Assembly: GCA_029941565.1 (NCBI GenBank)
Contig: JAPYRN010000019.1
Span: 4,228-68,227 of the forward strand
Direction of reading: 5' to 3'
Source: Candidatus Latescibacterota bacterium
GTDB taxonomy: Bacteria > Latescibacterota > UBA2968 > UBA8231
DNA: 64,000 nt
Under the pieces are notes generated by a model. The model was given only the letters and a program-made list of their open reading frames with translations. It was not told the origin of the DNA and did no database searches. A program made the position numbers and the translations under genes. Shown piece after piece: positions 18,496-62,737 of this stretch. The stretch's first letter is position 1, and each line of letters begins with the position of its first letter.

Positions 18496-19515
18496 GTGCG
18501 CCTTGCCATCAGTCTGGGATTGATGGCGGCTTTCCTCTACTGGGCATTTGGTGACATCAAAGCGGGCTCGCTGTGGGCGGCAACCACCGGCGTTTCGGGA
18601 TGGTGGCTGGGCGCGGCGGTGGTCACGATCCTCATCACCGCAGTGCTGCGCGCCTGGCGCTGGAATGTCCTGCTGCGGCCCGTTGCCCCCAACGTCACGC
18701 TCGTCGATGCAACGTTGGCATTGTGCATTGGCTATGCGGTCAACCTCGTCAGCCCCATCCCGCGCGGTGGCGAGGCAGCCCGCGCCTTGAGCTTGCGGTG
18801 GACCCGGGGCGCGAACATCAGCGCCGTCGTTGGCACCATCGTCGTGGAACGCGTCATCGACATGCTCTGGCTGCTGCTCTTCATCGCCGTCTCGGCTGCT
18901 CTTCTTCCCGGGCAGATCGAGCAGCTCTTCCCCTGGATGCGCGCGGCAACGATGATAACTCTCGCCCTCGCGATTCTGGCCGTCGCCGGTATGGTTGTCG
19001 TGTCCTTCTACAAGGATCGTGGTGTCGCCTTCGTCCACCGCCTTCTCGCCCACCTGTCGGAACGACTGGCGCAGACCGTCGCCGACCTGTTGTCACAATT
19101 TATCCACGGCTTGGTCGCATTGCGGACGCCATCTGCCTATCTGGAGATTCTGCTCAGTTCCCTGCTGCTCAATGCGGGATACATTCTTATCACCTACTTC
19201 TCCTTCGCCGCCTTCAACTTTCAGCATAGTCCTTGGCACCTGGGTGGCGAAGCGGCGCTGGTAGTCATGGCGGTCTCATCGATCGGCTTCGTGCTGCCCG
19301 CCCAGGGAGGGATCGGCACCTATCACTTCTTTTATGGGACCTCCCTGAACAAACTGTTTGCCATTCCCCAGGCATCGGCTATGGCATGTGCCACCGTCGT
19401 GCATGCGGTTTCGAGTTTGACCTACTTCGTTGTGGGCGCCCCCGCCCTGTTGCTGCTGCGCCACCGTCACGGCAAACGTGGCACTCTCAAGGAAGAACTC
19501 GAGCAGGCCTCCTAA
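18496..19515 (+). CDS. Membrane protein, lysylphosphatidylglycerol-synthase TM-region / flippase-like (UPF0104) family
   Basis: 339 aa with a GTG start and about 8 TM segments. The N-terminal pattern WWLGAAVVTILITAVLRAWRWNVLLRPV is characteristic of this family as I recall it. Confidence 0.65.
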   Translation: MRLAISLGLMAAFLYWAFGDIKAGSLWAATTGVSGWWLGAAVVTILITAVLRAWRWNVLLRPVAPNVTLVDATLALCIGYAVNLVSPIPRGGEAARALSLRWTRGANISAVVGTIVVERVIDMLWLLLFIAVSAALLPGQIEQLFPWMRAATMITLALAILAVAGMVVVSFYKDRGVAFVHRLLAHLSERLAQTVADLLSQFIHGLVALRTPSAYLEILLSSLLLNAGYILITYFSFAAFNFQHSPWHLGGEAALVVMAVSSIGFVLPAQGGIGTYHFFYGTSLNKLFAIPQASAMACATVVHAVSSLTYFVVGAPALLLLRHRHGKRGTLKEELEQAS

Positions 19516-19531
19516 GAGTTTCGGCGGGGCT

Positions 19532-22231
19532 TTAGTATTGCAGCGCAGATACGGCTTTGCTGACCATGGCCAGGGCAGCGCAGAACATGCCGATCAGCGA
19601 CATGCCGACGCCGAAACCGACGGCGAGCACCATCGCGTATCGACGCCATTCCTGCTTGCCATAACGCTTCCAGAAATAGAACCGAGCCAACAAGGCACCG
19701 AGGATCTGCGGCAGCAGATTGTGCGGGATGCCGAGCACACTCTGTACATACCCCCAGATGAGAAACACGGGCATCCCCAGGAAAGACATGGAGAAGTACA
19801 CGAACAGGCCAAAGCCGCCGCCGATGAGGATGATCGGCCACTTCCAGCCTTTCAGTGGATGGCGAATATCCTCATCGACCGCACCGTCGCCATCGTCATC
19901 ACGATTGTTGACGAGCTCCTCATCGATGCGGCCATCCCCGTCATCGTCACGCCCGTCGCCCGTGTAGGTCAGGTCACGCCACAACGTCTCGAACAGCAAT
20001 GGCCGATCCGCCGACCTCTGCAGAAACTCGCCATCGAAGGTGATGAGGCGGTCCACTTCGAAGAAGAAGTCGACCGAATCCGCAGCCGTCCCGGCAATGG
20101 CTCGAAAATTCGGATTCGCCGTGACCACAACGATTCCCGGCTCGGGCCACACTCTCTGTACCGTCGTCACATCTTCCACGGGTGGGCCTCGAAGACTGTC
20201 CCTTTTGGCCGCTGATTGGCGAGCGATGTCCAGCGCCACCAGCATTGCGCCCGGTACTTCTTCGGGCACCTTGCCATCACCAAAATTCGTGTAGAAGTGC
20301 CCGACGTCCGACCACGCACCATACTGCCGTTTGTTGGGGTCAGGGATCTCGACGTCCAGCGTCGCCTTCACGCGCCAGTACCACCACTGCTCATCCTGTA
20401 GATTGGATGGACTCCAGACCGCCTCTCCCGGTGATACGAGAGCGCCCTCCACCTCCTCCCCGCCGCGCCACATTCGGCTATACATCGTACTCGAGAAAAA
20501 CAGGGCTCGGTCGAAGGCCTGCAGCGGCCACATGAGTTGTGCGTATGGATAACTCTCTGACGGGATCGGTCCCATGCGCCAGAGGAAACTCCAGTACATC
20601 AGGCTGACGACGAAGACGATGGGCAACATGAAGAGCTCCGCCTTCAGCAGACTCGTAAAGCGCATGCCCGTGAGTTCGACGACTCGAAAACCCTCTGCGT
20701 GTCCGCCATAGTTGCGTGTCGGAAATGGCACGAACCAGATGTCGACGCCACGGTAACCGGTGAGGAAGATGATCGCTTCATTGATGTATGGAATCGACAC
20801 TTCTCTGCCGATGAGGCCATCAAGTCGTGCCGACACGAAGGACATGATCGGCGCGTAGATGAAGGCGATGCCGAAGAACAAGACCAGCAGCCCCGTGGTC
20901 ACCAGCGTCGGAAAGAGCGTCTTGGCGAGCACGATCGGGTAGACGGCAGCGACGGAAAAAAGGATGACACAGATCCAGAGATTGAAGTCGCCACGACCGA
21001 GGTGTTTGATACAATATCCCCGCACCTCGGAGTGGGAATTACAGCCCTCGTGCTGACAGGTGTCCGGGTAGGTGCGCTCGTCACCACGCAGCGAGTCCCG
21101 CACCTGTAGACGCCGTTGGCGTGCCGTCGTCAGCAACTGATAGAAACTGATGACGGTGACGGCAAGGGTGATGCCGATGGAGAAGGCACGCCAGAAATCG
21201 ATCCCCGTCACGATCTGTGTTCTGATCGTATCCATGCCCGAGGACCAGCTGGGCAGCAGCCCGGCATCATATAGGAATGGGCTCGCAAAGGTGTGAGCCA
21301 TGACCCCACAGAAAGAACCTACGACACCCCAGAATGGCATCAGCAGGCCACCGAAGATGATGCCAAGATTGAGTGTGATCCCCAACGGCGTTGCCGGCAG
21401 CAGGTTGCCAAAATAGGGTGTCAGGTCCCAGAACGGGATGGGAATGAGGGATACCCTGGCGGCGGCACCACCAATGACTTCGGTGATCGTGGGAATCCCC
21501 ACGTAGAGCATGCCAAAGACGGCGCCGATGACACCCCCAACGGCGAAGACCGGCCATTTCCAGGTCTCCTCTTCGTCGCCACTTTCTTCGGCCAGAGCCA
21601 TGGCCGACAGGGCCGACATGGGCGCCGTCGGGAAGGGCAGGCGTTCGCGATCGGAGGTCAGGCGAAAGAGCAGGTAGCCACTGGTAAACCAGGTGATACG
21701 CCCGACGATGGTGCCCGACACGAGCAGGACCATGGGCCACAGCCAGTCCCGATGCAGGAAGGTACGAGCCGCCAGCGCCGGTGAGTCAGGAGATGGCACC
21801 CACCACCACGGCAACAGCCGCGCGACGCCAAATTGCGCCGCCTCGGCGGAGCGCACGAAATACTGACGGAATAGCAGATCGAGGAAGGCGCCCTCTTCCC
21901 TGGCGACCAATGCCGAAGCGACATAGACGAGCAGGTATATCTCCTGTCGCCGGAGAGAGGTGAAGGAACGTTTGGCGACTTCCAGGAACAGGATCACGGT
22001 CACCCACTGTGCCGCCGCACCGATGGATCCACCCGTGACGAGGCCGAGATACATCTCTCCCGGGGTCATGATCAGCGAAATGAACAACACGCCGATCACC
22101 GTACGCAGGGTGAATCCCTCTTCGAATCGCTCTGGAGGTTCCAGCAGCGACCGGTACTCCTCGACCTCCTCCCATTGCTTGCGCCGCAGTCGCCGGCGCC
22201 AACCAAACAAGCCGCGTTCGGACTCAGCCAT
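19532..22231 (-). CDS. System gene C: 899-aa polytopic membrane protein with an OPT-like N-terminal core, a Cys/His knuckle loop, and a ~210-aa insert carrying two DxDxDG-type acidic loops
   Basis: Uninterrupted 899-aa ORF starting 12 nt after the stop of gene B. The N-terminal FTLRTVIGVLFISLIMTPGEMYLGLVTGGSIGAAAQW resembles the first TM pair of OPT-family transporters. CQHEGCNSHSEVRGYCIKH lies at aa 392-410. GDGRDDDGDGRIDEELVNNRDDDGDGAVDEDI lies at aa 758-789. The C-terminal motif ARFYFWKRYGKQEWRRY is shared with gene A. Confidence 0.85.
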   Translation of the reverse strand: MAESERGLFGWRRRLRRKQWEEVEEYRSLLEPPERFEEGFTLRTVIGVLFISLIMTPGEMYLGLVTGGSIGAAAQWVTVILFLEVAKRSFTSLRRQEIYLLVYVASALVAREEGAFLDLLFRQYFVRSAEAAQFGVARLLPWWWVPSPDSPALAARTFLHRDWLWPMVLLVSGTIVGRITWFTSGYLLFRLTSDRERLPFPTAPMSALSAMALAEESGDEEETWKWPVFAVGGVIGAVFGMLYVGIPTITEVIGGAAARVSLIPIPFWDLTPYFGNLLPATPLGITLNLGIIFGGLLMPFWGVVGSFCGVMAHTFASPFLYDAGLLPSWSSGMDTIRTQIVTGIDFWRAFSIGITLAVTVISFYQLLTTARQRRLQVRDSLRGDERTYPDTCQHEGCNSHSEVRGYCIKHLGRGDFNLWICVILFSVAAVYPIVLAKTLFPTLVTTGLLVLFFGIAFIYAPIMSFVSARLDGLIGREVSIPYINEAIIFLTGYRGVDIWFVPFPTRNYGGHAEGFRVVELTGMRFTSLLKAELFMLPIVFVVSLMYWSFLWRMGPIPSESYPYAQLMWPLQAFDRALFFSSTMYSRMWRGGEEVEGALVSPGEAVWSPSNLQDEQWWYWRVKATLDVEIPDPNKRQYGAWSDVGHFYTNFGDGKVPEEVPGAMLVALDIARQSAAKRDSLRGPPVEDVTTVQRVWPEPGIVVVTANPNFRAIAGTAADSVDFFFEVDRLITFDGEFLQRSADRPLLFETLWRDLTYTGDGRDDDGDGRIDEELVNNRDDDGDGAVDEDIRHPLKGWKWPIILIGGGFGLFVYFSMSFLGMPVFLIWGYVQSVLGIPHNLLPQILGALLARFYFWKRYGKQEWRRYAMVLAVGFGVGMSLIGMFCAALAMVSKAVSALQY

Positions 22232-22243
22232 CGATCACACTTT

Positions 22244-25200
22244 TCACGAGCCCTCCGAAGCCATGGAGAAGATCTCGTCGCCGGCTTTGATCATGTCCAT
22301 GGCGATCTCACTGTGATACTTCTTCGACGCCTCATCGAGGGTATGCCAGATGAGGAACTCCTTGCGCAGGTGGTTGACGAACCCTCCATTCACCCGTTGC
22401 CAGTAGGTGTCCTGGCCACTCAGACGTTGAATGAAGACCTCGACGGCGAAGGCACCACGCGTCGAACTTGCAGCGCACTCGATCTGCACGAACTGGCTCA
22501 CACCCATGTCAAATGGCGCCAGCCATAGAAGGAGCTGCACCGCATACTCCAACCTCCCCGTGTCGTCTGTCTCGCACACAACACGCACCTTGTCAGCATA
22601 GAAGTCCCCGATCGACTCCTCGCCATAGGCCTGGAAAAAGCTGGCAAGAAAACCGCACAACCCCTCTACCTCTTTCTCTGACACCATGAAGGGGAAGGAG
22701 AATTCCCAACGGTCCCCATCGGGTGGCGGCGGGCGCCACCGACGTACGGTGTCCGGTACCGCCGAGCGAGCCGCCACCCGTGCCGGATAAATCGTCGATA
22801 GCAGGACGACGCCCATCACCATCAATGCCGACATGATCGCAGCCAGGGAGGAATAGTTGAGATTCATGCCCCCAAGCCAGCCGAAATGGACGAGTGCTTT
22901 TCCCAGCCCCTGGCCCAACAGATACCCCATGGTGACACCGATGACGGCATAGACACAGGCCTCGGCGACAAACAACAGAGCAATGTGCATCGGCGCCAGA
23001 CCAACCGATGAATAGATCCCGATCTCGCGAAAACGTTCGTACACGGCGCCCATCATGGCATTGAGAACGATGAGAGACGCGATCAGCATCGGCACGATCA
23101 GTGCCGCCATACCCTCCACAGAGGTCACACCGAGTGAAGTAAAGGAGGAGACGACGATCTCGCCGTTCCCCGGGTCTCGAAGGCCTGCAAACAAGGTGCC
23201 GGAAATGCGTAGGAGAAAGTCTTCGATGAGCGTCTCGGCGTCGGCGTCTTCGTCAAAGCGCACCGCCACGGAACGCAGTCCGCCGAAAAGCTCCTGCAAC
23301 GTCCCATAGGGCAGGATGAGGACATTCTCTGCCGACAGATGTACGAAGGGGCGTACCTCGTAGGCCTGCGCCTCCTCCACAACGACCATCTGCGCCGAGG
23401 CGACGGGTCCAAGGGCGGCGTTGCTCGACATTTGAAAATCAGCCGGTGTCAGTGGCTCGTCATCAAGATCATGAACGTCACTGAATCTCTCCGCATCGAA
23501 CACACCCGCTACGGTGAATCGTTTACCAAAAATCTGCACGGTCGCCGAACCGACGTCATCAGGGCGGATACCGAGGGTGGCGGCCATCTCACCTGAGAGC
23601 AGACACGCCACCTCGTCGTCGTCAACAAACCACCGGCCCCACAACAAGCTGTTGGCGGCACCGGTGACATCCTTCTCCCCCACGGTCAACCCCAACAGAC
23701 CGGTGGCGCGGACACTGATGCTGTCGTGCCGAACATCGGTAAACTTCTTCTCCTCATCGTCGTAGGCGATATACCAATTGCGCGGTGCCACGACGCCCTC
23801 ATCGCCGAAGTGTGACCTGGCGTATTCCAGCGTTGACGGTGACAACTCCCCCCAGCCTCGGTCACGAATGAGGACCCCTTCATAGGGGCCCTCGTGATCG
23901 AGGGAGAACACGAGGAAACGCACATCCGGGCGAAAGGAGGTGAAGGACAGAACCGTGAAGGTCAACAATGTCAACGTCAGCAGCGTCAGAGCCGTACGCA
24001 ACCGTCGTCTGCGCATATTCGAGATGCCGAGGATGAACGCAGTGTAGGCGGCGCTGACGCGACTGATGTCGGTCTGGTGAATCTTGGCCTGCTCCGCCTG
24101 GTATTCGCGCAGAAACCGGTTGAAGCGACTCGTCACCATCACCAGAACGAAGACGGCCATGGCCATGATCGCGAAGGCGAGCAGGATGATGAGGGGATGG
24201 GCGATATCGAAGGCGGGATGCACCTGAGAGATCAACGCCCAGATCAGCAACAGCAAGCCGAGGAAGCCGGCGATCTGCCAGCGCACATCGGAGGATGCGA
24301 ACAACAGCCGTTCACCGAAGAATGCCGTTGGAATCACCAGGGCGAGGAAGAAGACGATGCCACGGATCACGTCGTTCAGGGTGCCCACGACTTCCGGATA
24401 GGCCAGCATGGTGACGCCGAGACCGGCCCGTACTTCAGCGATGTATTCTTCCCAGTGCAGCGAGTCGTAGGCGGTCTGCCCCGCCTGCAGGTGATCTCGG
24501 CCAGCTTCGTGCAGGCGGCTGAGACGTTGGTTTTCGATGGCATGACGACGCATCGTCGCCAGGCGTGCGTCGTTCAATCTCCACATGTCTCGCAGGGCGT
24601 GGATGTCGGCTGGCATCACGTCGTTGTTCAACAGATCGTAGCCGCTGCCCTTGGCCTCGTCCTCATTCTCTCCGCCAGGACTGTTGATCAACAGCAACGA
24701 GCCGAAGAGCATCTTCAGGGCCCCGCCCTGTCGGCCGCCCTCGCGAGAAGAGAAAACGACGCAGAGATTGCTGCTCATGCTGCCGCCGAAGCTGTAACCA
24801 AACTGGCGTGGCGCGATGCCACCGGGATCGATCAGCGTGAGTTTTCTCAGTCCCACAAGAAGATTGGGGTTTGTCAGGCCATAAAGCGTGCGCCCCACCG
24901 CCGGAAACATTACGAGGGTCCGGGTCTCCTGGTTCCACCGTATGCTCCAGTTCAGACGTCCGGATGGCGTCGGGGAGCCATGGAACTTCTGCGCTCTCAC
25001 ACTCAGATCCGGAGCGTAGGTAATCTCCCCCGTCTCCCGTTCCATGGCGTACGCTGTCAGTGCCTCCCCGCCGACCGTCAATCCAGGGACCAGTACCTCC
25101 CCCTTGTCATCGGTGAGGTGGTATTTCGCCAGGTGCACACCCTTGTGGCTGCCGGCGCCGATAATCACTAAGGCGTCATCGATCTGGCGATCGGGGGTCT

Positions 25201-26740
25201 GACTCCGACGTGGAAAGGCACGTAGCCTGACTTTGTGGGTCCGCAATTCATCCTTGAGCACCGGAGAAAAATCCTCCAGTCCCTGGAATAGCGCCGTGTC
25301 CGCAAAGGATCGACTCAGGATGCCGTTGAGGAAGCTCGACTGCCGGTGCAGATTGTCCATATCGACGCGCGCCGGCGTGTCGAGTGGTGTATTGACCGGA
25401 AAGCGTGCATCATGGATGGTGACAAAGGCGAGAGCCACTTGCCCCGCCGCCATCGCCATCTCGGAGTCAACGCTAACCCCGTCGGGGACGAAGGTCGACC
25501 AATCCATGCCTCGAATCGGACTGATGCCGTTGACCATGGCCTGCTCCGGATCACGTCCCTGGTCGGTGGCGACCTGTTGGGCGTATGCGGTAAAGCGTCG
25601 ACCGAAGGGGACGAAGAAACGCTTCAGGTCGAAGCTGAAGGTGTTGTTCCAGATGCCGACCTGGTCCGTCTTTGTCGACAGATCGAGGCTGATGAAGAGA
25701 TTGGGATGCAGCGGCTCTTCCATACGTTTGGCATAAAAGTCCGAGGCACGGGCATGCCGATCGAGAAAGTCGACGGCGCCACTCAGTGCCTGGAAATGAG
25801 CCCCGGCGAAGAGCAGTGTGATGTTACGCTCCGGGGGATGCTGGCGCAGATGGTGGGCCAATTCCAGTAGCGCCGCCGCACTGGAGGCTACCTCCGCGGA
25901 TGGCGCCAGGGAGGGTGCGATCGAAATTCCATCGTAATAGGCTTCGACGATGATTCGCTGTGACGACAGGACCGAATCGGCGGCGGCAGCGGGCACATCA
26001 ATCCAGATATTCCACGCCGGTCTCTCAACCCAGTCCATGCGCGAGTGCAGCTGTACGGCCAATTCCTCCCCATCGGCCAATCGTCGGCGCAGACGGTCGC
26101 CGTCCTTGCTGCCAACCCAGAAGCGCGGCACGTCTACGGGAGCAAAGAGATACTTGTCGATGGACTGTCGATAGGAGGTATCCTCCGGTTCGATGAAGAG
26201 GATCGCCCGCGCCCCCAAGCCGGCGAGGCGGACCCAGTGATCCCAGGAGTTGAATTCCATGAGCACGATGCGGCCATCGATGGCGCGACCGTCGAAGTCG
26301 GCATATTCACCGCCACCCGCCCAGGTTAACGGCGCCTCTAATCCTCCAGGAGGTACCGTCGTCGTCCGTGGACCATTCGGCCACAACCCGAAGAGCTCGA
26401 CACTCTCACCCCATTCCTCGATGTGGAGACGACTGGCGCCGATTTCGACCGGGACCGTTACCGGAAAACTTTCTCGGCGAACGGGGCCGCCCAGGTCCAG
26501 AGCCTGCAGTTGCGCTTCGAGCCAGTCTGCAACAAGGGCAGTCCCTGGCTGCCCCGTCATGCGGGAATCGTGGGAGGCCAGATACTCAATGCTGCTGCGC
26601 AGCCGCTGCTTGCTGTCGGCCATGGTGAGCAGATCGGGACCACCAGCGCCGGCAGGCAGACACCTCAGGGCGACACTTATGCAGACCAGAAAACCGGTCT
26701 GACGCAACATATATAGGCTCTTCTTCTTCATCGACGCCAT
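22244..26740 (-). CDS. System gene B: ~1498-aa fusion of a signal anchor, a PA-domain/M28-like ectodomain (ligands substituted), a beta-rich linker, 3 TM segments, an FtsX/MacB-type permease module, and an unrecognised C-terminal cytoplasmic domain
   Basis: ORF 22244..26806. The likely start is ATG 26740 (MASMKKKSLYMLRQTGFLVCISVAL), 1 nt after the gene A stop. It has an M28-like scaffold (IEYLASHDSRMTGQPG...IIVEAYYDGIS...APSAEVASSAAALLELAHHL...LLFAGAHFQALSGAVDFL) with an inserted PA-like domain. The FtsX-type TM1 is MRRRRLRTALTLLTLTLLTFTVLSF, followed by a large ectodomain. The FtsX TM2-4 signature is LIVLNAMMGAVYERFREIGIYSSVGLAPMHIALLFVAEACVYAVIGVTMGYLLG. Confidence 0.85.
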   Translation of the reverse strand: MASMKKKSLYMLRQTGFLVCISVALRCLPAGAGGPDLLTMADSKQRLRSSIEYLASHDSRMTGQPGTALVADWLEAQLQALDLGGPVRRESFPVTVPVEIGASRLHIEEWGESVELFGLWPNGPRTTTVPPGGLEAPLTWAGGGEYADFDGRAIDGRIVLMEFNSWDHWVRLAGLGARAILFIEPEDTSYRQSIDKYLFAPVDVPRFWVGSKDGDRLRRRLADGEELAVQLHSRMDWVERPAWNIWIDVPAAAADSVLSSQRIIVEAYYDGISIAPSLAPSAEVASSAAALLELAHHLRQHPPERNITLLFAGAHFQALSGAVDFLDRHARASDFYAKRMEEPLHPNLFISLDLSTKTDQVGIWNNTFSFDLKRFFVPFGRRFTAYAQQVATDQGRDPEQAMVNGISPIRGMDWSTFVPDGVSVDSEMAMAAGQVALAFVTIHDARFPVNTPLDTPARVDMDNLHRQSSFLNGILSRSFADTALFQGLEDFSPVLKDELRTHKVRLRAFPRRSQTPDRQIDDALVIIGAGSHKGVHLAKYHLTDDKGEVLVPGLTVGGEALTAYAMERETGEITYAPDLSVRAQKFHGSPTPSGRLNWSIRWNQETRTLVMFPAVGRTLYGLTNPNLLVGLRKLTLIDPGGIAPRQFGYSFGGSMSSNLCVVFSSREGGRQGGALKMLFGSLLLINSPGGENEDEAKGSGYDLLNNDVMPADIHALRDMWRLNDARLATMRRHAIENQRLSRLHEAGRDHLQAGQTAYDSLHWEEYIAEVRAGLGVTMLAYPEVVGTLNDVIRGIVFFLALVIPTAFFGERLLFASSDVRWQIAGFLGLLLLIWALISQVHPAFDIAHPLIILLAFAIMAMAVFVLVMVTSRFNRFLREYQAEQAKIHQTDISRVSAAYTAFILGISNMRRRRLRTALTLLTLTLLTFTVLSFTSFRPDVRFLVFSLDHEGPYEGVLIRDRGWGELSPSTLEYARSHFGDEGVVAPRNWYIAYDDEEKKFTDVRHDSISVRATGLLGLTVGEKDVTGAANSLLWGRWFVDDDEVACLLSGEMAATLGIRPDDVGSATVQIFGKRFTVAGVFDAERFSDVHDLDDEPLTPADFQMSSNAALGPVASAQMVVVEEAQAYEVRPFVHLSAENVLILPYGTLQELFGGLRSVAVRFDEDADAETLIEDFLLRISGTLFAGLRDPGNGEIVVSSFTSLGVTSVEGMAALIVPMLIASLIVLNAMMGAVYERFREIGIYSSVGLAPMHIALLFVAEACVYAVIGVTMGYLLGQGLGKALVHFGWLGGMNLNYSSLAAIMSALMVMGVVLLSTIYPARVAARSAVPDTVRRWRPPPPDGDRWEFSFPFMVSEKEVEGLCGFLASFFQAYGEESIGDFYADKVRVVCETDDTGRLEYAVQLLLWLAPFDMGVSQFVQIECAASSTRGAFAVEVFIQRLSGQDTYWQRVNGGFVNHLRKEFLIWHTLDEASKKYHSEIAMDMIKAGDEIFSMASEGS

Positions 26741-26741
26741 G

Positions 26742-28898
26742 TCATATCCAGAAGATCGGATTGCCCACTTTGCCAGTAAAGTAATCGACGATGAGCCAGA
26801 GACCATTGCATATCGTCTGACCGGCGATCAAGCCGAGGAAAAATCGCTGGCTGTGCCGATACGCGGTGGCGCCACCGTAACGCAGAACAACACGCTTGAT
26901 GAGCCACGCGAGAAAAACATTGAACCAGACGAAGTTCATCATCTGGTTGGCGCCAATGGGAAAGCCGAGAGGATGCAGTGGCCACCAAGGTAGTCGTTGG
27001 CGCAGCCACATCATGGTACTCATCACGACAGCCCCGCCAGCGAAGAAGCCCATTCCCGGCCAATACGTGTCCTCGATTTCGAGATTGCGCAACGCCTGAT
27101 TGTAGGTGTCGGCGGGCAGGCCCTTAAAAAACCAGCCATTCAGATTGATCCCCCCATGCCGGTAGGACATGTGGAAAATCATCCACAGTGATCCCGCAAT
27201 GCCGATGAAGAGTGCCAGGATCATGGCCCAGAAAACGATGCGCCGATTTCTCGGTTCCATCTCCTCGATCATCTTCAGCGCATTCGTCGCCGTCGCCATG
27301 ACAAATACGCGAATATCTGCAGCCCAGACATGGGCGAGGGACAGATTGACAACTCCAGTAGGTCCCACCAGGCCTGCCCCCATGCTGTGCACGACGAGAT
27401 CACTGGCAATCATCGGCGAGCGCACCGCCGCCAGCCCCGCCTCGGCGACGATACGGGTGACGCCAAGAAAGATGAGTATCGCCAGCAGAATGAAGAGGGC
27501 GGCAACCCACAGGGGGGTCCCCATGAGCCACAACCACAACGACATGACGATGATTCCACCAAGCAAACCGGTGACGGCGCCCCGATACGGCAGGATCTCA
27601 TCGGCATCAGAAATCTCGGGGGCCAGTCCCAGGGCTTTGGCGAATACAGCTCGATAATGTTCGCGACCCACCCATAGACCGATGAGGACCATCGCCAACA
27701 GCGCGCCAACTCCCTGGTACCCAAGGAAGGGATAATCCATCACTCCGAAGCTGAGCTTCTGTGTCGACTTCAGACCGGTGAGGATGAACACTTCCTTCTC
27801 CACCCGGGAGAAGAGGTGGAAGAACCAGATTCCAGCGCCGATGTTGGCATTGATAAAGTATGAAAAGCCAAGCATCGCAAAACTGATACTGATCTGTAGT
27901 GGCTGTTGCCCAAAGAATGGCAGCGCCCACTTGAGTGGCGGTACGGGCACCCCGGGAGAGTAGCGATGTAGCGCCACCAGACTACCAGCGATCAACGGCA
28001 GCGCCGCACCCATCCACATGCCCGGTTGGCGAAAGAAACCGTTGACGATGTTGTCGGAACTCTCCGATCGGATCATAGACAAGCCGACCTGGGCGATCGG
28101 ATAGGCGAGTCGTTCCCGCTCCATCCACTGGCGGCGCACAATGATGGCGACGCAGACCATCGTCACGTACAGGGCAAGCAGAAATACCCCCCACCAGATG
28201 AGTGGCTCCACCCAGCTTGCATACGGAATGCGATCCCCTGTCAGAGACAACCCTTCGTAGAACAACCGGCTGCCCGTGCCATCGTCCACCATCGCCTGTT
28301 CGGGCAAGTGTGGGATCAGTTTCTCCTGCCACTTGTTCTCCGGTGAGGCAAAGTAGAAAATGGCGGTGATGATCGGCAGAATCTGCTCGCTCAATCCCAT
28401 CGTACATACGGCGGAGACGATGAGTAGCATGGCATAAACGAGAACGAGCTCGGACCGATTCAGCGCCAGGCTGCTGCCGCGAACCACAAGTGGCAGATTG
28501 ATCCACGAAGTGATGACGAGAAAGCTTGTCAACAGCAGACCCGGTGAGTAAGGATCCAGGGGTGTACCCAGATACCAAGAGAACCACAGACCGGTGGCTG
28601 AGAGGGCGACTGCGACGCCAGCGAGGGGGCCACCACGGGCGACCAGCTTGAACAGGCTGTTGAGGATACCGATGAGGAACAGAAACAGGAAGATGGCGCC
28701 CGGCGTTGAGAAATCGAGGGCCATATACGAGCCCCTGATAATCATATTGCCATAGGGCGCGCCAATGGCTAGAAAGAAGGAGAGGAATCCACCGATCCAG
28801 AATGCTCGTACGGACAGTCCGTCGGCGCCGGAGCCGAGCACAGAGTCTCTGCGGGTCGCCAGGTAGCTGGAGTATGCTCGGGGGATCCCGCGTTGCAA
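26742..28898 (-). CDS. System gene A: ~718-aa polytopic membrane protein, paralogous to gene C in its C-terminal module
   Basis: ORF 26742..29066. The 5' extension would overlap the divergent peptidase gene. I prefer the TTG at 28898, which is preceded by AAGGAGG (minus strand reads aaGGAGGccaaTTG). There are more than 14 hydrophobic segments. The N-terminal LSVRAFWIGGFLSFFLAIGAPYGNMIIRG is OPT-like. The C-terminal AWLIKRVVLRYGGATAYRHSQRFFLGLIAG parallels gene C. Confidence 0.8.
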   Translation of the reverse strand: MQRGIPRAYSSYLATRRDSVLGSGADGLSVRAFWIGGFLSFFLAIGAPYGNMIIRGSYMALDFSTPGAIFLFLFLIGILNSLFKLVARGGPLAGVAVALSATGLWFSWYLGTPLDPYSPGLLLTSFLVITSWINLPLVVRGSSLALNRSELVLVYAMLLIVSAVCTMGLSEQILPIITAIFYFASPENKWQEKLIPHLPEQAMVDDGTGSRLFYEGLSLTGDRIPYASWVEPLIWWGVFLLALYVTMVCVAIIVRRQWMERERLAYPIAQVGLSMIRSESSDNIVNGFFRQPGMWMGAALPLIAGSLVALHRYSPGVPVPPLKWALPFFGQQPLQISISFAMLGFSYFINANIGAGIWFFHLFSRVEKEVFILTGLKSTQKLSFGVMDYPFLGYQGVGALLAMVLIGLWVGREHYRAVFAKALGLAPEISDADEILPYRGAVTGLLGGIIVMSLWLWLMGTPLWVAALFILLAILIFLGVTRIVAEAGLAAVRSPMIASDLVVHSMGAGLVGPTGVVNLSLAHVWAADIRVFVMATATNALKMIEEMEPRNRRIVFWAMILALFIGIAGSLWMIFHMSYRHGGINLNGWFFKGLPADTYNQALRNLEIEDTYWPGMGFFAGGAVVMSTMMWLRQRLPWWPLHPLGFPIGANQMMNFVWFNVFLAWLIKRVVLRYGGATAYRHSQRFFLGLIAGQTICNGLWLIVDYFTGKVGNPIFWI

Positions 28899-28994
28899 TT
28901 GGCCTCCTTCTTTGGGTGTCAGACAAGATACATACACCCTTCCTGACGTGGCAATCACCTTGACCGGGAAGTCGGCCTGAACTGTATTGGAAAG

Positions 28995-30152
28995 ATGTCC
29001 GAAACCTATCTTGATATCCTCCACCGCCTGCTGCCACTGCCCACCGCACCCTTTTACGAACAGCATGTTATGGCCGAGATCCTGCGTTTTGCCGCGGAGA
29101 GATCATTGCCATGCGCGGCAGACGACTTCGGCAATCTCATGCTGACAGCCGGCGGCAGTGAGGCGAAGCCAGAGCTCTGCCTGACGGCGCACATGGACCA
29201 TCCTGCGTTGGGTTTTGCGGTGCACGAATCCTCTCGCGACCTGCTCTTCGAGAGACTCGGTGGGGTTCCCTCGGCTCTTACACGAGATGCCAGAGTCCTG
29301 TTGTACGATCGCACACCGGCTGCAGGCGCCAGAGCCGTACCCGTCGGCGCCGGTTCGGTGACAAGTTTTCTTGAAGAAGGCGTGCCTGGTTCGCCAAATC
29401 CCTCCGCCCCCGCTTTCCGGGTCCGCATCGACGATGAGGTCCCGGAGGAGGGTGATCTGTTCGCAGTTTGGGACCTCACCCCCTGTGCCCTCAAGGGCGA
29501 ACAGATCGTCGGCAGAGCCTGCGACGACCTGGCGGGTGTCTGCGTCGCGCTGGCTACCATGGACTGCTGTCTTGCAGAGGGCGTTTCCCTGTCGGTCCTG
29601 CTCACCCGTGCTGAGGAGACCGGCTTCGGCGGCATGCTCGCGGCGCTTGCGGCCGATGGACTCGATCGCGAGGCAATCTATGTCAATATCGAATGCTCCT
29701 CCTGCCGCTCGGGTGCGCCCCTCGGGGCAGGACCCGTAATTCGCGTCGGCGACCGCCGCTGGATTTTTGACGCCGGTGTGACCGAAGCCCTGTGCCGTTG
29801 TGCTGCCGAACTGGCGCAAAGACTGGACGGATTCAGCGTGCAGCGCCGACTGATGGATGGTGGCGTCTGCGAGGCGACCCCACTCTCTCGTAGTGGCCGC
29901 GCCACTGGCGCAGTCGCCCTGCCACTCGACAATTATCACAACGACGGCGGGCAGCGCCTGCGGTCCGAGGCGGTGCATCTGCGGGATGCAGAAAATCTCG
30001 TCTCCCTGCTGACTGACCTGGCCCGCCAACGACGCGGTGCCAACGCCATGGTTGCCGAATCCTTGGCCACTCTCGACGACATGCTGCGGTCGCGGCATAT
30101 CTCCCAGGTCGATCGTCTACGGCGAACGACGAATCCCATGTCACAGCCATAA
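28995..30152 (+). CDS. M42/M20-fold metallopeptidase-like protein
   Basis: 385 aa. Its motif order matches the M42 aminopeptidase/endoglucanase-like family: TAHMDHPALGF, GRACDDLAGVCVAL, LTRAEETGFGG, NIECSS, GAGPVIRVGD, MDGGVCEAT, PLDNYHN. It is divergent from gene A across 96 bp. Confidence 0.65.
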   Translation: MSETYLDILHRLLPLPTAPFYEQHVMAEILRFAAERSLPCAADDFGNLMLTAGGSEAKPELCLTAHMDHPALGFAVHESSRDLLFERLGGVPSALTRDARVLLYDRTPAAGARAVPVGAGSVTSFLEEGVPGSPNPSAPAFRVRIDDEVPEEGDLFAVWDLTPCALKGEQIVGRACDDLAGVCVALATMDCCLAEGVSLSVLLTRAEETGFGGMLAALAADGLDREAIYVNIECSSCRSGAPLGAGPVIRVGDRRWIFDAGVTEALCRCAAELAQRLDGFSVQRRLMDGGVCEATPLSRSGRATGAVALPLDNYHNDGGQRLRSEAVHLRDAENLVSLLTDLARQRRGANAMVAESLATLDDMLRSRHISQVDRLRRTTNPMSQP

Positions 30153-49361: not shown

Positions 49362-50606
49362 TCAACGCGTCGCCACCTGGCCGCCAGCAACGAAACCACT
49401 CGACCACGCCCACTGGAAATTGTAGCCGCCAAGATCGCCGTGCACATCGACCATCTCACCGGCGAAGTACAGACCGGGAGCGACATACGACTGCAGGGTA
49501 TGCGGATCGATTTCATCGGTACGGATCCCACCGATAGTGACCTCAGCATAGTCGAAATTTCGTGGCCCCGTAACTCGAATCGGCAGGGCGGTTATGAGCG
49601 CAGCCAATTCCCTGCGCTGCCGCTTGGACACCCCTGCCACGAGTGCCGACGCCTCGAGACCTGCCCTGGCGAGCAGGACGCGAGCCACCTTGGCATGGAG
49701 CAACCCCGCCAGACTTAAGCCCAATTCTCGGTGCGGGTGTCGTTGCCAACGCGTCTGCAACAGTTCGCCCACCTCTTCTGCTGACTTGTCCGGTAGCAGA
49801 CTGACCAGCAGGGAAAGAGGACCCTCCTCTCGCAGATGCCGCACGATGCGGGCACTGAGGTTCAGGATTGTGAACCCCGACACGCCGTACTTGGCAAAGA
49901 GCAAGTCGTCGGTATCAACGACGGTCGCCTTGCCCAGGCCTTGCGCCTCGACTCTGGCCCAGACTTTCACCCCCTGCAGATCCCGTATCCATCGATCGTC
50001 GCTCTCCAACGCAACGAGGCCCGGATACAACGCGGTGCGAGTGTGTCCGAGGCTTTCCACAAGAGCCAGACCACTGTCGTCGGCGCCGAGTTTTGGCAAA
50101 CTGAGGCCACCGGAACAGGCGATCACTTGTTCAGCCCGCCACAGCGAACCATCCGAGCCTCGTACGTCGAAGCCACCGACGCCATGACGCTGTAACTGGT
50201 CAACACGCACATCCGTGTGCACTTCGACACCAAGGACGGTCAGTTCATCGGCGAGCACATCGACGACGGATCGAGCCTGGTCGGATCTTGGAAAGAGTCG
50301 CCCACGCTTTTCCTGCTTGGTCTCAATTCCGAGTTCGGTGAAGAACTTGAGCGCCTCCTGCACTGGAAAGGTGGCCAAGGAGGGACGCACAAAACGAGGA
50401 TTGCTCCCGTGATAGTGCGTTGGGTCATCACCATCGACGTTGAGCAGATTGCAGCGGCCATTGCCCGAGACCAGGATCTTGCGACCCAATTCTCTGCTAC
50501 CCTCGAGCAACACGACGCGTGTCCCAGCCCGTGCAGCCCGGATTGCAGCCATCATCCCAGCGGCACCGCCGCCGATGACGAGGCACTGAGGGAATGCATC
50601 ACTCAT
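49362..50606 (-). CDS. HI0933/BaiN-family NAD(P)/FAD-dependent oxidoreductase
   Basis: 414 aa. It has VIGGGAAGMMAAIRAA...KILVSGNGRCNLLN and the C-terminal LYFAGEMVDVHGDLGGYNFQWAWSSG. Confidence 0.85.
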   Translation of the reverse strand: MSDAFPQCLVIGGGAAGMMAAIRAARAGTRVVLLEGSRELGRKILVSGNGRCNLLNVDGDDPTHYHGSNPRFVRPSLATFPVQEALKFFTELGIETKQEKRGRLFPRSDQARSVVDVLADELTVLGVEVHTDVRVDQLQRHGVGGFDVRGSDGSLWRAEQVIACSGGLSLPKLGADDSGLALVESLGHTRTALYPGLVALESDDRWIRDLQGVKVWARVEAQGLGKATVVDTDDLLFAKYGVSGFTILNLSARIVRHLREEGPLSLLVSLLPDKSAEEVGELLQTRWQRHPHRELGLSLAGLLHAKVARVLLARAGLEASALVAGVSKRQRRELAALITALPIRVTGPRNFDYAEVTIGGIRTDEIDPHTLQSYVAPGLYFAGEMVDVHGDLGGYNFQWAWSSGFVAGGQVATR

Positions 50607-50781
50607 GGTGTATCCAATTGTTTTACAACCAGTTATGAACCGGCAACATCGACCGGAGCAAGCTGCTTCTACCTTGACACTCCACAGTAGATCCGCTACC
50701 TTTTACGGTTTATATCTACTGGAATATAGGTTCCAAATAACGCACTGCTCTTTTATGGAACTCCCGAACTCAGAGGATGTT

Positions 50782-62552: not shown

Positions 62553-62737
62553 GGGTGGAGTTGACGCGGGGACCCATTCACCCGCTTCTTGGCGCTGTCC
62601 TGGAAAAGGAGTTCGTGATGATGATGACAATGAATTGCGGGATGTGGCTGATCCTGTTCGGGTTGATCGTACCCCAAGCACGGATCGACGCAGCGACAAT
62701 GGTCCCTTCCGCCACGACATTCTCGACAGCGTGTTGA

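What the first reader, a model, noticed from the sequence alone, without database searches (positions are those of the whole stretch)
22244..24016. FtsX/MacB-type permease module of gene B lacks any ATPase partner and instead carries a ~175-aa unrecognised cytoplasmic tail
The module runs from MRRRRLRTALTLLTLTLLTF (TM1) through a ~260-aa ectodomain to the FtsX TM2-4 block (ERFREIGIYSSVGLAPMHIALLFVAEACVYAVIG...LSTIYPARVAARSAVP). After TM4 comes an extra domain: DTVRRWRPPPPDGDRWEFSFPFMVSEKEVEGLCGFLASFFQAYGEE...LIWHTLDEASKKYHSEIAMDMIKAGDEIF. It has no Walker motifs and no family I recognise. Three further TM helices precede TM1 (aa ~815-895). If the module still works as a mechanotransmitter, its energy input is unknown. 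Candidates are the tail, the OPT-like partners, or a distal ATPase.
Basis: partly seen in the sequence, partly recalled or inferred. Interest (0 to 1): 0.65.

Follow-up and report, generated by a model that had tools for sequence, protein, structure and literature searches.

The report
MacB/FtsX-fold membrane module without an ATPase
A very large membrane protein of a marine Latescibacterota-like bacterium contains a genuine MacB/FtsX-type "ABC permease" module with no ABC ATPase encoded near it. Instead it ends in a conserved, previously undescribed cytoplasmic domain, which suggests this normally ATP-driven fold has been rewired to work with two other membrane proteins.

Summary
Window 22244-24016 (minus strand) encodes aa 931-1520 of a 1520-aa ORF.

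- **Module:** the segment runs elbow helix, TM1, a ~270-aa MacB-type periplasmic domain, TM2-4, then a 169-aa tail. It matches Pfam FtsX and MacB_PCD, and Foldseek matches MacB at E 3.7e-14.
- **Tail:** it closes 1,585 protein clusters, almost always after this module. It has no Pfam or PDB sequence match and no Walker or LSGGQ motifs. It folds confidently (pLDDT 91) as an antiparallel beta-alpha-beta4-alpha-alpha domain with only weak START/Bet v1, KA1 or PsbP resemblance, so it is not an NBD.
- **ATPase:** none is found in the 64-kb window. Only 5 of 85 related loci have an NBD within 10 kb, never adjacent and never FtsE/LolD-sized. A distal shared ATPase cannot be excluded, and both MacB coupling helices are strongly conserved.
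- **Partners:** the conserved neighbours are gene A (DUF6785/6784) and gene C. In 12 loci gene A is fused in frame behind the tail.
- **Closest relative:** PADLOC's uncharacterised "CARF_m8--CARF_LolE_TM" model fits the 3TM+FtsX part but not the tail.

Best reading: an ATPase-independent MacB-fold scaffold or transducer whose tail links it to its partners. It is a new variant of a known kind.

The parts
22244..26806 (-). Gene B. The ORF is 1520 aa, but the likely true start is M23 at 26740, giving 1498 aa. Domain order: signal/anchor, M28/PA-like ectodomain, 3 TM, elbow helix, FtsX/MacB module, C-terminal tail.
   Evidence: The gene A stop codon (TGA) lies 1 nt before the ATG at 26740.
24407..26641 (-). 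Extracytoplasmic M28/PA-like domain, aa ~56-800. The canonical di-zinc and catalytic residues are replaced across the whole family: HxD becomes YYD, DD becomes AE, and EE becomes HF.
   Evidence: Pfam Peptidase_M28 scores 19.1 bits, below its cut-off.
24134..24370 (-). Three additional TM helices, aa 813-891, preceding the FtsX module.
   Evidence: Hydropathy. AlphaFold helices H2-35, H41-62 and H71-106. Present in 85 of 85 loci.
23993..24133 (-). Cytoplasmic linker plus the amphipathic elbow helix before TM1, aa 892-938. It ends in RRRRLR.
   Evidence: AlphaFold H116-133 immediately before TM1 H135-155. Invariant positions in alignment A2.
23933..23992 (-). FtsX-module TM1, aa 939-958.
23123..23932 (-). 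Extracytoplasmic MacB-type core domain (Porter/Sabre-like), aa 959-1228.
   Evidence: Pfam MacB_PCD scores 27.7 bits against a cut-off of 27. Foldseek matches the MacB periplasmic domain: 5c59 with TMt 0.54 and 9qgy_M with TMt 0.60.
23039..23122 (-). TM2, aa 1229-1256.
22991..23038 (-). Major coupling-helix loop ERFREIGIYSSVGLAP, aa 1257-1272. It aligns with MacB ERT(R/Q)EIG(I/V)RMAVGAR and is the most conserved segment of the module.
   Evidence: Residue alignment to MacB 5gko and 5nik. Mean top-residue frequency is 0.91.
22772..22990 (-). TM3, the external shoulder loop, and TM4, aa 1273-1345.
   Evidence: Pfam FtsX hit at aa 1234-1347..
22712..22771 (-). Counterpart of the minor coupling helix (PARVAARSAVPDTVRRW) plus a conserved Pro-rich linker (PPPPDGDRW), aa 1346-1365.
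   Evidence: It aligns with the C-terminal PAR.AA...P.DAL of MacB and YtrF, where those proteins end. Invariant P, D, R and W positions.
22337..22711 (-). Tail core domain, aa 1366-1490. It is an antiparallel beta-alpha-beta4-alpha fold with invariant motifs FxFPF, ESIG, WLAPxD, RxSGxxxxWxRxN and LRKxFLxWxT.
   Evidence: Alignment A1. AlphaFold pLDDT 91 and pTM 0.86. Foldseek. 1,585 clusters.
22247..22336 (-). Variable C-terminal helix of the tail, aa 1491-1520. In the fused relatives it runs directly into the first TM helix of the DUF6785 partner.
   Evidence: Low conservation, 0.34. Sequence of fused protein L033.
26742..29066 (-). Gene A, a polytopic DUF6785 + DUF6784 protein. It is a conserved partner, translationally coupled to gene B.
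   Evidence: Pfam E 6.4e-111 and 4.3e-30. Detected by phmmer in 57 of the 85 loci, usually next to B, and fused to B in 12 of those.
19532..22231 (-). Gene C, an 899-aa polytopic protein with no Pfam family. It is a conserved partner and starts 12 nt after the gene B stop codon.
   Evidence: Detected in 69 of 85 loci, usually directly after B. The hhalign link to gene A is weak: probability 56%, E 1e-4. JGI names a 99%-identical protein 'OPT family'.

Best explanation
Gene B is the central subunit of a conserved three-protein inner-membrane system: A (DUF6785/6784), B, and C.

What is shown:
- The C-terminal 590 residues of B are a true MacB/FtsX-fold module. The module has the amphipathic elbow helix, four TM helices, a MacB-type periplasmic core domain, and both coupling helices.
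- B has no dedicated ABC ATPase nearby.
- B continues past the point where MacB, LolC and YtrF end. The continuation is a family-specific cytoplasmic alpha+beta domain, the 'tail'.
- The tail is not an energy source. It has no P-loop and no nucleotide-binding fold.
- In a subfamily the tail is covalently fused to partner A.

What is inferred:
- The tail is a binding or adaptor domain of the beta-alpha-beta4-alpha class.
- The tail sits at the cytoplasmic face next to the coupling helices, where the NBD sits in MacB, and ties the FtsX helix bundle to A.
- The module acts as an ATP-independent scaffold or transducer. It holds the two ectodomains, the catalytically degenerate M28/PA-like domain and the Porter/Sabre-like domain, over the polytopic partners.
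- If the module moves at all, the movement is driven through the tail by the partners' own cycle, presumably ion-coupled transport of peptide-like substrates, or by a ligand bound to the tail. It would not be driven by ATP hydrolysis.
For: - **Module identity:** Pfam FtsX and MacB_PCD. PDB sequence hits to MacB, YtrF, LolC and FtsX. AlphaFold pLDDT 81.8. Foldseek matches MacB at E 3.7e-14 plus the LolCE, HrtB, BceB, YbbP and FtsX structures.
- **The tail is an add-on:** MacB and YtrF chains end 2-10 residues after the aligned PAR.AA motif.
- **The tail is conserved and module-specific:** it is present in all 120 listed homologues. Mean column identity is 56%. It occurs in 1,585 clusters, at the C-terminus of proteins of 1,450-3,050 aa. 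Among the best 144, 103 show the full architecture M28-like > 3TM > FtsX > tail, 39 look like fragments and 2 carry gene A after the tail. None has an NBD.
- **The tail is not an NTPase:** it has no Walker A or SGG motif. The confident model is an antiparallel beta meander with helices. Foldseek returns only START/Bet v1, KA1 and PsbP-type binding domains, at TM 0.25-0.39 on the query and up to 0.53 on the shorter target.
- **No ATPase nearby:** none in the window. In 85 loci from many genomes, an NBD lies within +-10 kb in only 5. It is never adjacent and is 338-709 aa, not FtsE/LolD-like.
- **Partners:** C is found in 69 of 85 loci and A in 57 of 85. Twelve loci carry an in-frame B::A fusion in which the last tail helix leads into the first TM helix of A.
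- **Flanks:** other flanking genes are lineage synteny only.
- **Expression:** the operon is tightly packed. Seawater metatranscriptome contigs cover A, B and C and cross both gene junctions.
- **Sister family:** PADLOC CARF_m8--CARF_LolE_TM matches the 3TM+FtsX part at 184 bits. By its name this is another LolE-type module joined to a sensor domain.
Against: - The major coupling-helix loop is the most conserved part of the module (0.91) and keeps the MacB motif. The minor coupling helix is retained as well. In MacB both contact the NBD (PMC5985334), so an NBD docking in trans would explain their conservation at least as well as tail docking does.
- AlphaFold does not place the tail confidently against the TM domain. 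The pTM is 0.57, and pLDDT is 63-73 for the coupling loop and the TM4-tail linker. No coordinates were available to inspect contacts.
- The transport function of A and C is unproven. Neither gave an OPT or any other transporter HMM hit.
- The fold assignment of the tail is weak. No Foldseek hit reached E<1e-3.
- Whole genomes could not be scanned for orphan NBDs.
Confidence: 0.42

Rival explanations
1. B is an ordinary type VII ABC system whose ATPase is encoded elsewhere. One distal, shared FtsE/LolD-like NBD would serve the two or three A-B-C paralogues per genome. This is how MceG serves several Mce permeases and MsiK serves several sugar permeases (precedents from my own knowledge). The tail would then be an accessory domain beside the NBD.
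For: - The coupling-helix loop is 91% conserved and keeps the canonical ER.REIG motif, and the minor coupling helix is retained.
- Several paralogous loci occur per genome, for example OX638377.1, OZ242005.1 and CBDCSU01.
- The conserved Pro-rich linker after TM4 could hold the tail to one side.
Against: - No NBD is in the window, and none is adjacent in any of the 85 loci.
- In canonical MacB, Lol and FtsEX systems the NBD is fused or adjacent.
- In the 12 fused proteins the tail is tethered within about 15-25 residues of TM helices at both ends, directly under the membrane, which leaves little room for an NBD.
- No representative of the 144 best-scoring clusters carries an NBD.
Confidence: 0.22
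2. The tail is a cytoplasmic ligand sensor, START/Bet v1-like and analogous to the CARF domain of the PADLOC sister family. B would then be a transmembrane signalling or gating device. Binding of a small molecule or lipid to the tail would reshape the FtsX bundle and its ectodomains, or the signal would run the other way, regulating partners A and C.
For: - Nearly all the listed Foldseek hits for the tail are ligand- or lipid-binding helix-grip proteins: PYR/PYL, Bet v 1, AHSA1/CoxG, Ups1/PRELID and the KA1 domain. The others are PsbP and the catalytic domains of Rieske oxygenases.
- The closest catalogued family by score is named CARF_m8--CARF_LolE_TM.
- The tail carries an invariant Arg/Trp cluster: R121, W129, R131, N133 and R141.
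Against: - TM-scores are 0.25-0.39 on the query (up to 0.53 on the shorter target) and E-values are at or above 2e-3, so the fold match is not established.
- The tail does not match the C-terminal 208 positions of the PADLOC model.
- Its predicted antiparallel meander is not the Rossmann-like CARF fold.
- No ligand pocket could be examined.
Confidence: 0.18
3. The FtsX module is a static relic. It would be only a membrane anchor and dimerisation scaffold for the ectodomains, with no conformational role, and the tail would be a stabilising cap.
For: - No energy source was identified.
- In the AlphaFold model the TM1 and TM2 helices are only 21-25 residues long, so no long periplasmic stalk is visible.
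Against: A relic would be expected to drift. Instead the cytoplasmic coupling loop and the tail core are more conserved than the periplasmic domain: 0.91 and 0.61 against 0.49.
Confidence: 0.15

Closest known systems
MacB / LolCE / FtsX / HrtB / BceB permeases (type VII ABC transporters, Pfam FtsX PF02687 + MacB_PCD PF12704)
   Same: - The core is four TM helices with an amphipathic elbow helix before TM1.
- A Porter/Sabre-type periplasmic domain lies between TM1 and TM2.
- The ER.REIG major coupling helix lies between TM2 and TM3.
- A minor coupling helix follows TM4.

Supporting calls: 6, 51, 53, 73. The defining features are taken from PMC5985334.
   Different: - No NBD is fused or adjacent.
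- Three extra TM helices and a ~780-aa M28/PA-like ectodomain lie upstream.
- A 169-aa conserved cytoplasmic domain follows where those proteins end.
- The partners are polytopic DUF6785 and gene C proteins, not adaptors, OMFs or hydrolase activators.
- NCBIfam scores fall far below the MacB, LolC and FtsX cut-offs: 28 against 966, 18 against 473, and 20 against 250.
PADLOC models PDLC01991 'CARF_m8--CARF_LolE_TM' and PDLC01990 'CARF_m8--CARF_Beta-galactosidase_LolE_TM' (the names derive, as I recall, from the 2020 CARF superfamily classification of Makarova et al., which is not held in the library)
   Same: This is the best-scoring known family for the 3TM + FtsX part, at 184 bits and E 8e-55 over aa 827-1398. 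That is well above the generic Pfam FtsX score of 45.6 bits. The second model also has a very long N-terminal part before the LolE region, as gene B does.
   Different: - The tail alone gives no hit at E<=10, and profile positions 603-810 stay unmatched.
- The predicted tail fold is an antiparallel meander, not Rossmann-like.
- There is no CRISPR, CBASS or other defence context around the locus.
- I could not inspect the model's member sequences. Where its CARF domain lies is therefore my inference from profile coordinates.
SRPBCC (START / Bet v 1 / AHSA1 / CoxG) and KA1 domains. From memory, these belong to the beta-alpha-beta4-alpha 'TBP-like' fold class of SCOP.
   Same: The order of secondary-structure elements in the tail is beta-alpha-beta-beta-beta-beta-alpha(-alpha). 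These are the families Foldseek retrieves most often.
   Different: TM-scores are 0.25-0.39 on the query and up to 0.53 on the shorter target, E-values are at or above 2e-3, and identity is below 16%. There is no sequence or HMM signal. The resemblance is a lead, not a membership.
Shared or orphan ABC arrangements such as MceG with the Mce permeases (PMC9947336 appeared in the search; I did not read it)
   Same: Permease-type genes lack an adjacent ATPase, and there are several paralogous permease loci per genome.
   Different: Those are different ABC folds with a demonstrated distal ATPase. No ATPase is known here, and a dedicated domain occupies the cytoplasmic end of the module.
Inactive M28-fold ectodomains used as receptors (nicastrin, transferrin receptor). 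This comparison is from my own knowledge.
   Same: An M28/PA-like ectodomain with the catalytic residues replaced, attached to a membrane complex.
   Different: This is an analogy only. No homology beyond the M28 fold was tested.

Membership tests
MacB/FtsX permease fold (type VII ABC transporter TMD) | Pfam FtsX domain (TM2-TM4) above its gathering score | tested here: met
   45.6 bits against a cut-off of 25.5, aa 1234-1347.
MacB/FtsX permease fold (type VII ABC transporter TMD) | Four TM helices with a large extracytoplasmic domain of MacB (Porter/Sabre) type between TM1 and TM2 | tested here: met
   Hydropathy. MacB_PCD scores 27.7 against a cut-off of 27. Foldseek matches whole MacB at E 3.7e-14 and the MacB periplasmic domain at TMt 0.54-0.60.
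MacB/FtsX permease fold (type VII ABC transporter TMD) | Amphipathic helix parallel to the membrane before TM1, a major coupling helix between TM2 and TM3, and a minor coupling helix after TM4 (PMC5985334) | tested here: met
   AlphaFold H116-133, H459-467 and H552-556. Residue alignment with MacB ERTREIG...PARNAARLDPVDAL.
ABC transporter (functional membership, type VII) | A cognate ABC nucleotide-binding domain, fused or encoded with the permease | tested here: not met
   Gene B has no Walker A or SGG motif. No NBD is in the 64-kb window. An NBD lies within +-10 kb in only 5 of 85 loci and is never adjacent. None occurs in the 144 representatives. A distal NBD elsewhere in the genome is not testable with these tools.
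FtsEX / MacB / LolCDE (specific orthologous groups) | NCBIfam equivalog or exception model above its cut-off | tested here: not met
   MacB 28.1 against 966, FtsX_actino 20.2 against 250, LolC 17.6 against 473, ADOP 14.6 against 622.
CARF_m8--CARF_LolE_TM (PADLOC PDLC01991) | A match over the whole model, including the non-LolE (CARF) part | tested here: not met
   Only profile positions 87-602 of 810 are matched. The tail alone gives no hit at E<=10.
CARF_m8--CARF_LolE_TM (PADLOC PDLC01991) | Rossmann-like CARF fold of the sensor domain, and a defence-system gene context | tested here: not met
   The tail model is an antiparallel beta meander. The neighbours are metabolic and housekeeping genes, with no cas or CD-NTase genes.
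ABC NBD / P-loop NTPase (for the tail) | Walker A, Walker B and LSGGQ motifs, and a parallel-sheet alpha/beta fold | tested here: not met
   Motif scan. Secondary structure beta-alpha-beta4-alpha-alpha. No NBD appears among the Foldseek hits.
SRPBCC / START / Bet v 1-like (for the tail) | Helix-grip fold match with TM-score above 0.5, or a significant E-value | tested here: inconclusive
   Best E 2e-3, TM 0.25-0.39 on the query and up to 0.53 on the target. No Pfam hit.
Peptidase M28 (N-terminal ectodomain) | Co-catalytic zinc ligands and the catalytic Glu (HxD, D, EE) | tested here: not met
   YYD, AE and HF occupy the aligned positions in the window protein and in all 43 family members shown of the 80-sequence alignment, with a few conservative variants (FYD/YFD; AD, AN or AA; HY or HH). 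The Pfam score of 19.1 is below the cut-off of 21.3.
OPT oligopeptide transporters (partners A and C) | A Pfam OPT match or other significant similarity to a solved or known OPT member | tested here: not met
   No OPT hit for gene A, gene C or their homologues at E<=1-10. No PDB hit with profiles. The only support is a JGI product name on P0274.

The most novel reading that the evidence does not exclude
The MacB/FtsX 'mechanotransmission' fold can operate without any ABC ATPase. In this large family the NBD has been replaced by a dedicated cytoplasmic adaptor or sensor domain. That domain would couple the four-helix bundle to the conformational cycle of an ion-driven polytopic partner (DUF6785 or gene C), or to a bound ligand. 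Periplasmic work would then be powered or gated by something other than ATP hydrolysis.
Probability: 0.25. Interest if true: 0.85.

Novelty: new variant of a known kind. Interest (0 to 1): 0.62.

Why it matters
Every characterised MacB-superfamily member (MacB, LolCDE, FtsEX, HrtBA, BceAB, YbbAP) uses ATP binding and hydrolysis in an NBD to move its periplasmic domain. That dependence is the basis of the 'type VII ABC / mechanotransmission' concept.

This family is widespread and expressed. It spans at least 1,400 clusters at E<=1e-10. The 85 loci examined come from Latescibacterota, Gemmatimonadota and Planctomycetota, and source names on the protein homologues add Omnitrophota and Armatimonadota. 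The family keeps the fold and both coupling helices but has no ATPase nearby. It has its own conserved cytoplasmic domain and fixed polytopic partners.

Two outcomes are possible:
- It reveals an ATP-independent way of driving or using this fold.
- It reveals a hidden shared ATPase.

Either way it defines a testable three-component membrane machine. It also gives DUF6785/DUF6784 their first functional context, and it flags the current 'ABC transporter permease' annotation of these proteins as probably misleading.

Tried and rejected
- **Tail as a degenerate NBD:** rejected. It has no Walker or signature motifs and an antiparallel fold.
- **Tail as a known Pfam, PDB or PADLOC domain:** no hits. 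The designed-propeller SAKe hits (0 stretches) and the ATG8 hits (E 0.2-0.5) are noise.
- **Tail as a stand-alone or promiscuous domain:** rejected. Of the 144 best representatives, 136 also carry the FtsX module. The other 8 show the tail alone, and such short entries look like fragments.
- **ATPase hidden in the window or flanks:** the phmmer and regex scans were negative. The few NBDs in flanks are 338-709 aa proteins of other types at variable distance.
- **A fourth conserved component or a non-ABC ATPase:** all-against-all clustering of flank ORFs gave only antisense shadow ORFs and lineage synteny (RelA/SpoT, RecD2, SDR, M42). One paralogue group has a ~330-aa soluble ORF without a P-loop.
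- **Defence system:** rejected on context, despite the PADLOC hit.
- **Active M28 aminopeptidase feeding peptide transporters:** the canonical catalytic residues are absent family-wide.
- **A and C as close paralogues:** only a weak profile link, probability 56%.
- **Literature:** searches for DUF6785, DUF6784, PF20581 and CARF_m8, and for FtsX with M28, returned nothing. The CARF classification paper is not held.
- **Tail-to-coupling-helix contacts:** they could not be examined because model coordinates are not exposed.
Full report
**Observation**

The finding's coordinates are exact. The minus-strand ORF 22244-26806 encodes 1520 aa. MRRRRLRT starts at residue 931, which is base 24016. ERFREIGIY is at residue 1257, LSTIYPARVAARSAVP at 1336, and the tail DTVRRW at 1352, which is base 22753.

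Hydropathy gives three helices at aa 813-891, TM1 at 940-958 and TM2-4 at 1230-1345. The likely true start is M23 at 26740, one base after the stop codon of the upstream gene. The downstream gene starts 12 nt after the stop codon of gene B.

**The module is a genuine MacB/FtsX-fold permease**

- Pfam gives FtsX at 45.6 bits (cut-off 25.5) and MacB_PCD at 27.7 bits (cut-off 27).
- PDB sequence search finds MacB, YtrF, LolC, Spr0695, FtsX and LolF.
- An AlphaFold model of aa 801-1520, built on 46 homologues (pLDDT 81.8, pTM 0.57), shows these elements in order: three long helices, a disordered linker, an amphipathic helix, TM1, a mixed alpha/beta ectodomain, TM2, a short helix, TM3, TM4 and the tail.
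- Foldseek puts MacB first at E 3.7e-14. LolC/E, HrtB, BceB, YbbP, FtsX and the isolated MacB periplasmic domain (TMt 0.54-0.60) follow.
- Residue alignments show the MacB major coupling helix motif: query ERFREIGIYSSVGLAP against MacB ERT(Q/R)EIG(V/I)RMAVGAR. They also show the C-terminal PAR.AA...P.DAL minor coupling helix. These elements are defined in PMC5985334.
- Specific orthologue models for MacB, LolC, FtsX and ADOP are far below their cut-offs. The module therefore belongs to the fold but to none of the characterised groups.

**The tail**

Solved MacB and YtrF chains end within 2-10 residues of the aligned PAR.AA motif. Gene B continues for 169 residues.

The tail is present at the C-terminus of all 120 listed homologues, at 33-73% identity. 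Its invariant motifs are AVPD..R.W, GD.W.F.FPF, ESIG, WLAPxD, R.SG....W.R.N and LRK.FL.W.T.

A profile search of 1.84 billion representatives finds 1,585 clusters, 1,393 of them at E<=1e-10. The tail lies almost always at the very end of proteins of 1,450-3,050 aa. Of the best 144 clusters:
- 103 show the full architecture M28-like > 3TM > FtsX > tail.
- 39 look like fragments.
- 2 have DUF6785 after the tail.
- None has an NBD.

There is no Pfam, PDB-sequence or PADLOC match and no Walker A or SGG motif.

AlphaFold folds the tail confidently (pLDDT 91, pTM 0.86) as beta-alpha-beta-beta-beta-beta-alpha-alpha. Foldseek finds nothing at E<1e-3. The weak hits (TM 0.25-0.39 on the query, up to 0.53 on the shorter target) are mostly START/Bet v 1/PYL/AHSA1/CoxG helix-grip proteins. 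PsbP, Rieske-oxygenase catalytic domains and a KA1 domain also appear. From memory, this element order is that of the SCOP 'TBP-like' class, which holds Bet v 1-like and KA1 domains. These are binding modules, not NTPases.

The tail core is better conserved (mean top-residue frequency 0.61) than the periplasmic domain (0.49). The coupling-helix loop is the best conserved segment of all, at 0.91.

**No ATPase nearby**

Pfam scans of the flanking genes from 9 to 41 kb and of further ORFs show no ABC_tran domain. A phmmer search with an ABC NBD finds nothing among all window ORFs at E<=10.

A genome scan found at least 568 tail-encoding stretches. I analysed 85 loci, 80 from that scan and 5 from contig look-ups, each with flanks of up to 10 kb. 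The 80 come from Latescibacterota, Gemmatimonadota, Planctomycetota and unclassified MAGs. Several genomes carry two or three paralogous loci. Only 5 of the 85 loci contain any NBD. These sit at variable distance, are never adjacent, and are proteins of 338-709 aa rather than FtsE/LolD-type subunits.

Whole genomes could not be scanned, so a distal shared ATPase remains possible.

**What is conserved instead**

- All 85 loci carry the 3TM + FtsX + tail gene. The M28-like part was detected in 83. In a few loci it is a separate upstream gene, as in L001, L003 and L004.
- Gene C homologues are found in 69 of 85 loci, usually directly after B.
- Gene A (DUF6785+DUF6784) is found in 57 of 85 loci, usually next to B.
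- In 12 loci gene A is fused in frame behind the tail. The variable last helix of the tail then runs into the first TM helix of A. This Rosetta-stone fusion places the tail at the membrane surface next to A.
- Other neighbours are lineage-specific synteny.
- Genes A and C share only a weak profile similarity (hhalign probability 56%), which includes an ERERL.(F/Y)P motif. Neither hits OPT or any solved transporter. JGI nevertheless labels a 99%-identical gene C protein 'OPT family'.
- Seawater metatranscriptome contigs cover A, B and C and span both gene junctions. The operon is therefore transcribed in nature, with the usual caveat about DNA carry-over.

**Closest catalogued relative**

PADLOC's CARF_m8--CARF_LolE_TM model matches the 3TM + FtsX part at 184 bits, E 8e-55. 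A second model, CARF_Beta-galactosidase_LolE_TM, matches at 56 bits. The tail alone matches neither, and profile positions 603-810 stay unmatched.

I infer from the coordinates that in that family a sensor domain follows TM4 where the tail sits here. I could not inspect the model or the paper behind it. The locus has no defence context.

**Interpretation**

Shown:
- The fold is a MacB/FtsX permease fold.
- A conserved non-NTPase tail follows it.
- No neighbouring ATPase exists.
- Partners A and C are fixed, and B::A fusions occur.
- The operon is expressed.

Inferred:
- The tail is an adaptor or sensor that occupies the cytoplasmic face beside the coupling helices and links the module to A.
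- The module works as an ATP-independent scaffold or transducer between two ectodomains and the polytopic partners.

The main rival is a distal shared NBD. The strong conservation of both coupling helices supports that rival. A ligand-sensor role for the tail and a purely static role for the module are further rivals.

**Verdict**

The feature is a new variant of a known kind and is of real interest to ABC-transporter and envelope biologists. The energy-source question remains unresolved.

Noticed in passing
window ~25650-25970 (-), gene B aa ~280-385: The M28/PA-like ectodomain has lost the canonical M28 catalytic set across the whole family: HxD becomes YYD, the bridging DD becomes AE, and the catalytic EE becomes HF. 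The replacement residues are themselves conserved. This suggests a pseudo-peptidase or a re-purposed binding site.
   Followed up: partly
window 19532-22231 (-), gene C; homologues P0271-P0381: A large subgroup of gene C homologues (~1070 aa) carries a PDZ insertion (PF17820/PF00595). At that place the window protein has a soluble insert with two DxDxDGxxD calcium-type motifs at aa ~745-790. Gene C also has a Cys-rich C-x5-C-x10-C-x2-H motif at aa 392-410, which gave a weak Zf_WRKY19 hit.
   Followed up: partly
L033, L034, L037-L039, L042-L045, L048, L059, L077 (ORFs of ~2,090 aa, e.g. L033:6182-12448): Gene B and gene A (DUF6785/6784) are fused in frame into a single polypeptide of about 2,090 aa. 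No gene C was detected in these loci.
   Followed up: yes
L057:12824-13960 (+) and 27 similar loci: One paralogue group has an additional conserved ~330-aa soluble ORF just after gene C. It has no Pfam family and no Walker A motif. It may be a fourth component in that group.
   Followed up: partly
window 26742-29066 (-) and 28995-30152 (+): The longest ORF of gene A overlaps the divergent M42 aminopeptidase gene by about 70 nt. Homologues suggest that the real gene A start lies further downstream. The M42 gene is syntenic only in the closest relatives (13 loci).
   Followed up: partly
window 50605-53598 (+): A 997-aa ORF has no Pfam family at E<=0.001.
   Followed up: no
window 60381-62720 (-): A 779-aa ORF hits only the UvrA interaction domain in Pfam. 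It was not picked up by the NBD phmmer scan. It may be a divergent or partial UvrA-like protein.
   Followed up: no
window 19400-29200: Near-identical DNA occurs in hydrothermal-vent plume and seawater metagenomes. Four seawater metatranscriptomes hold contigs across A, B and C, so the organism is marine and the operon is expressed at a low level.
   Followed up: yes
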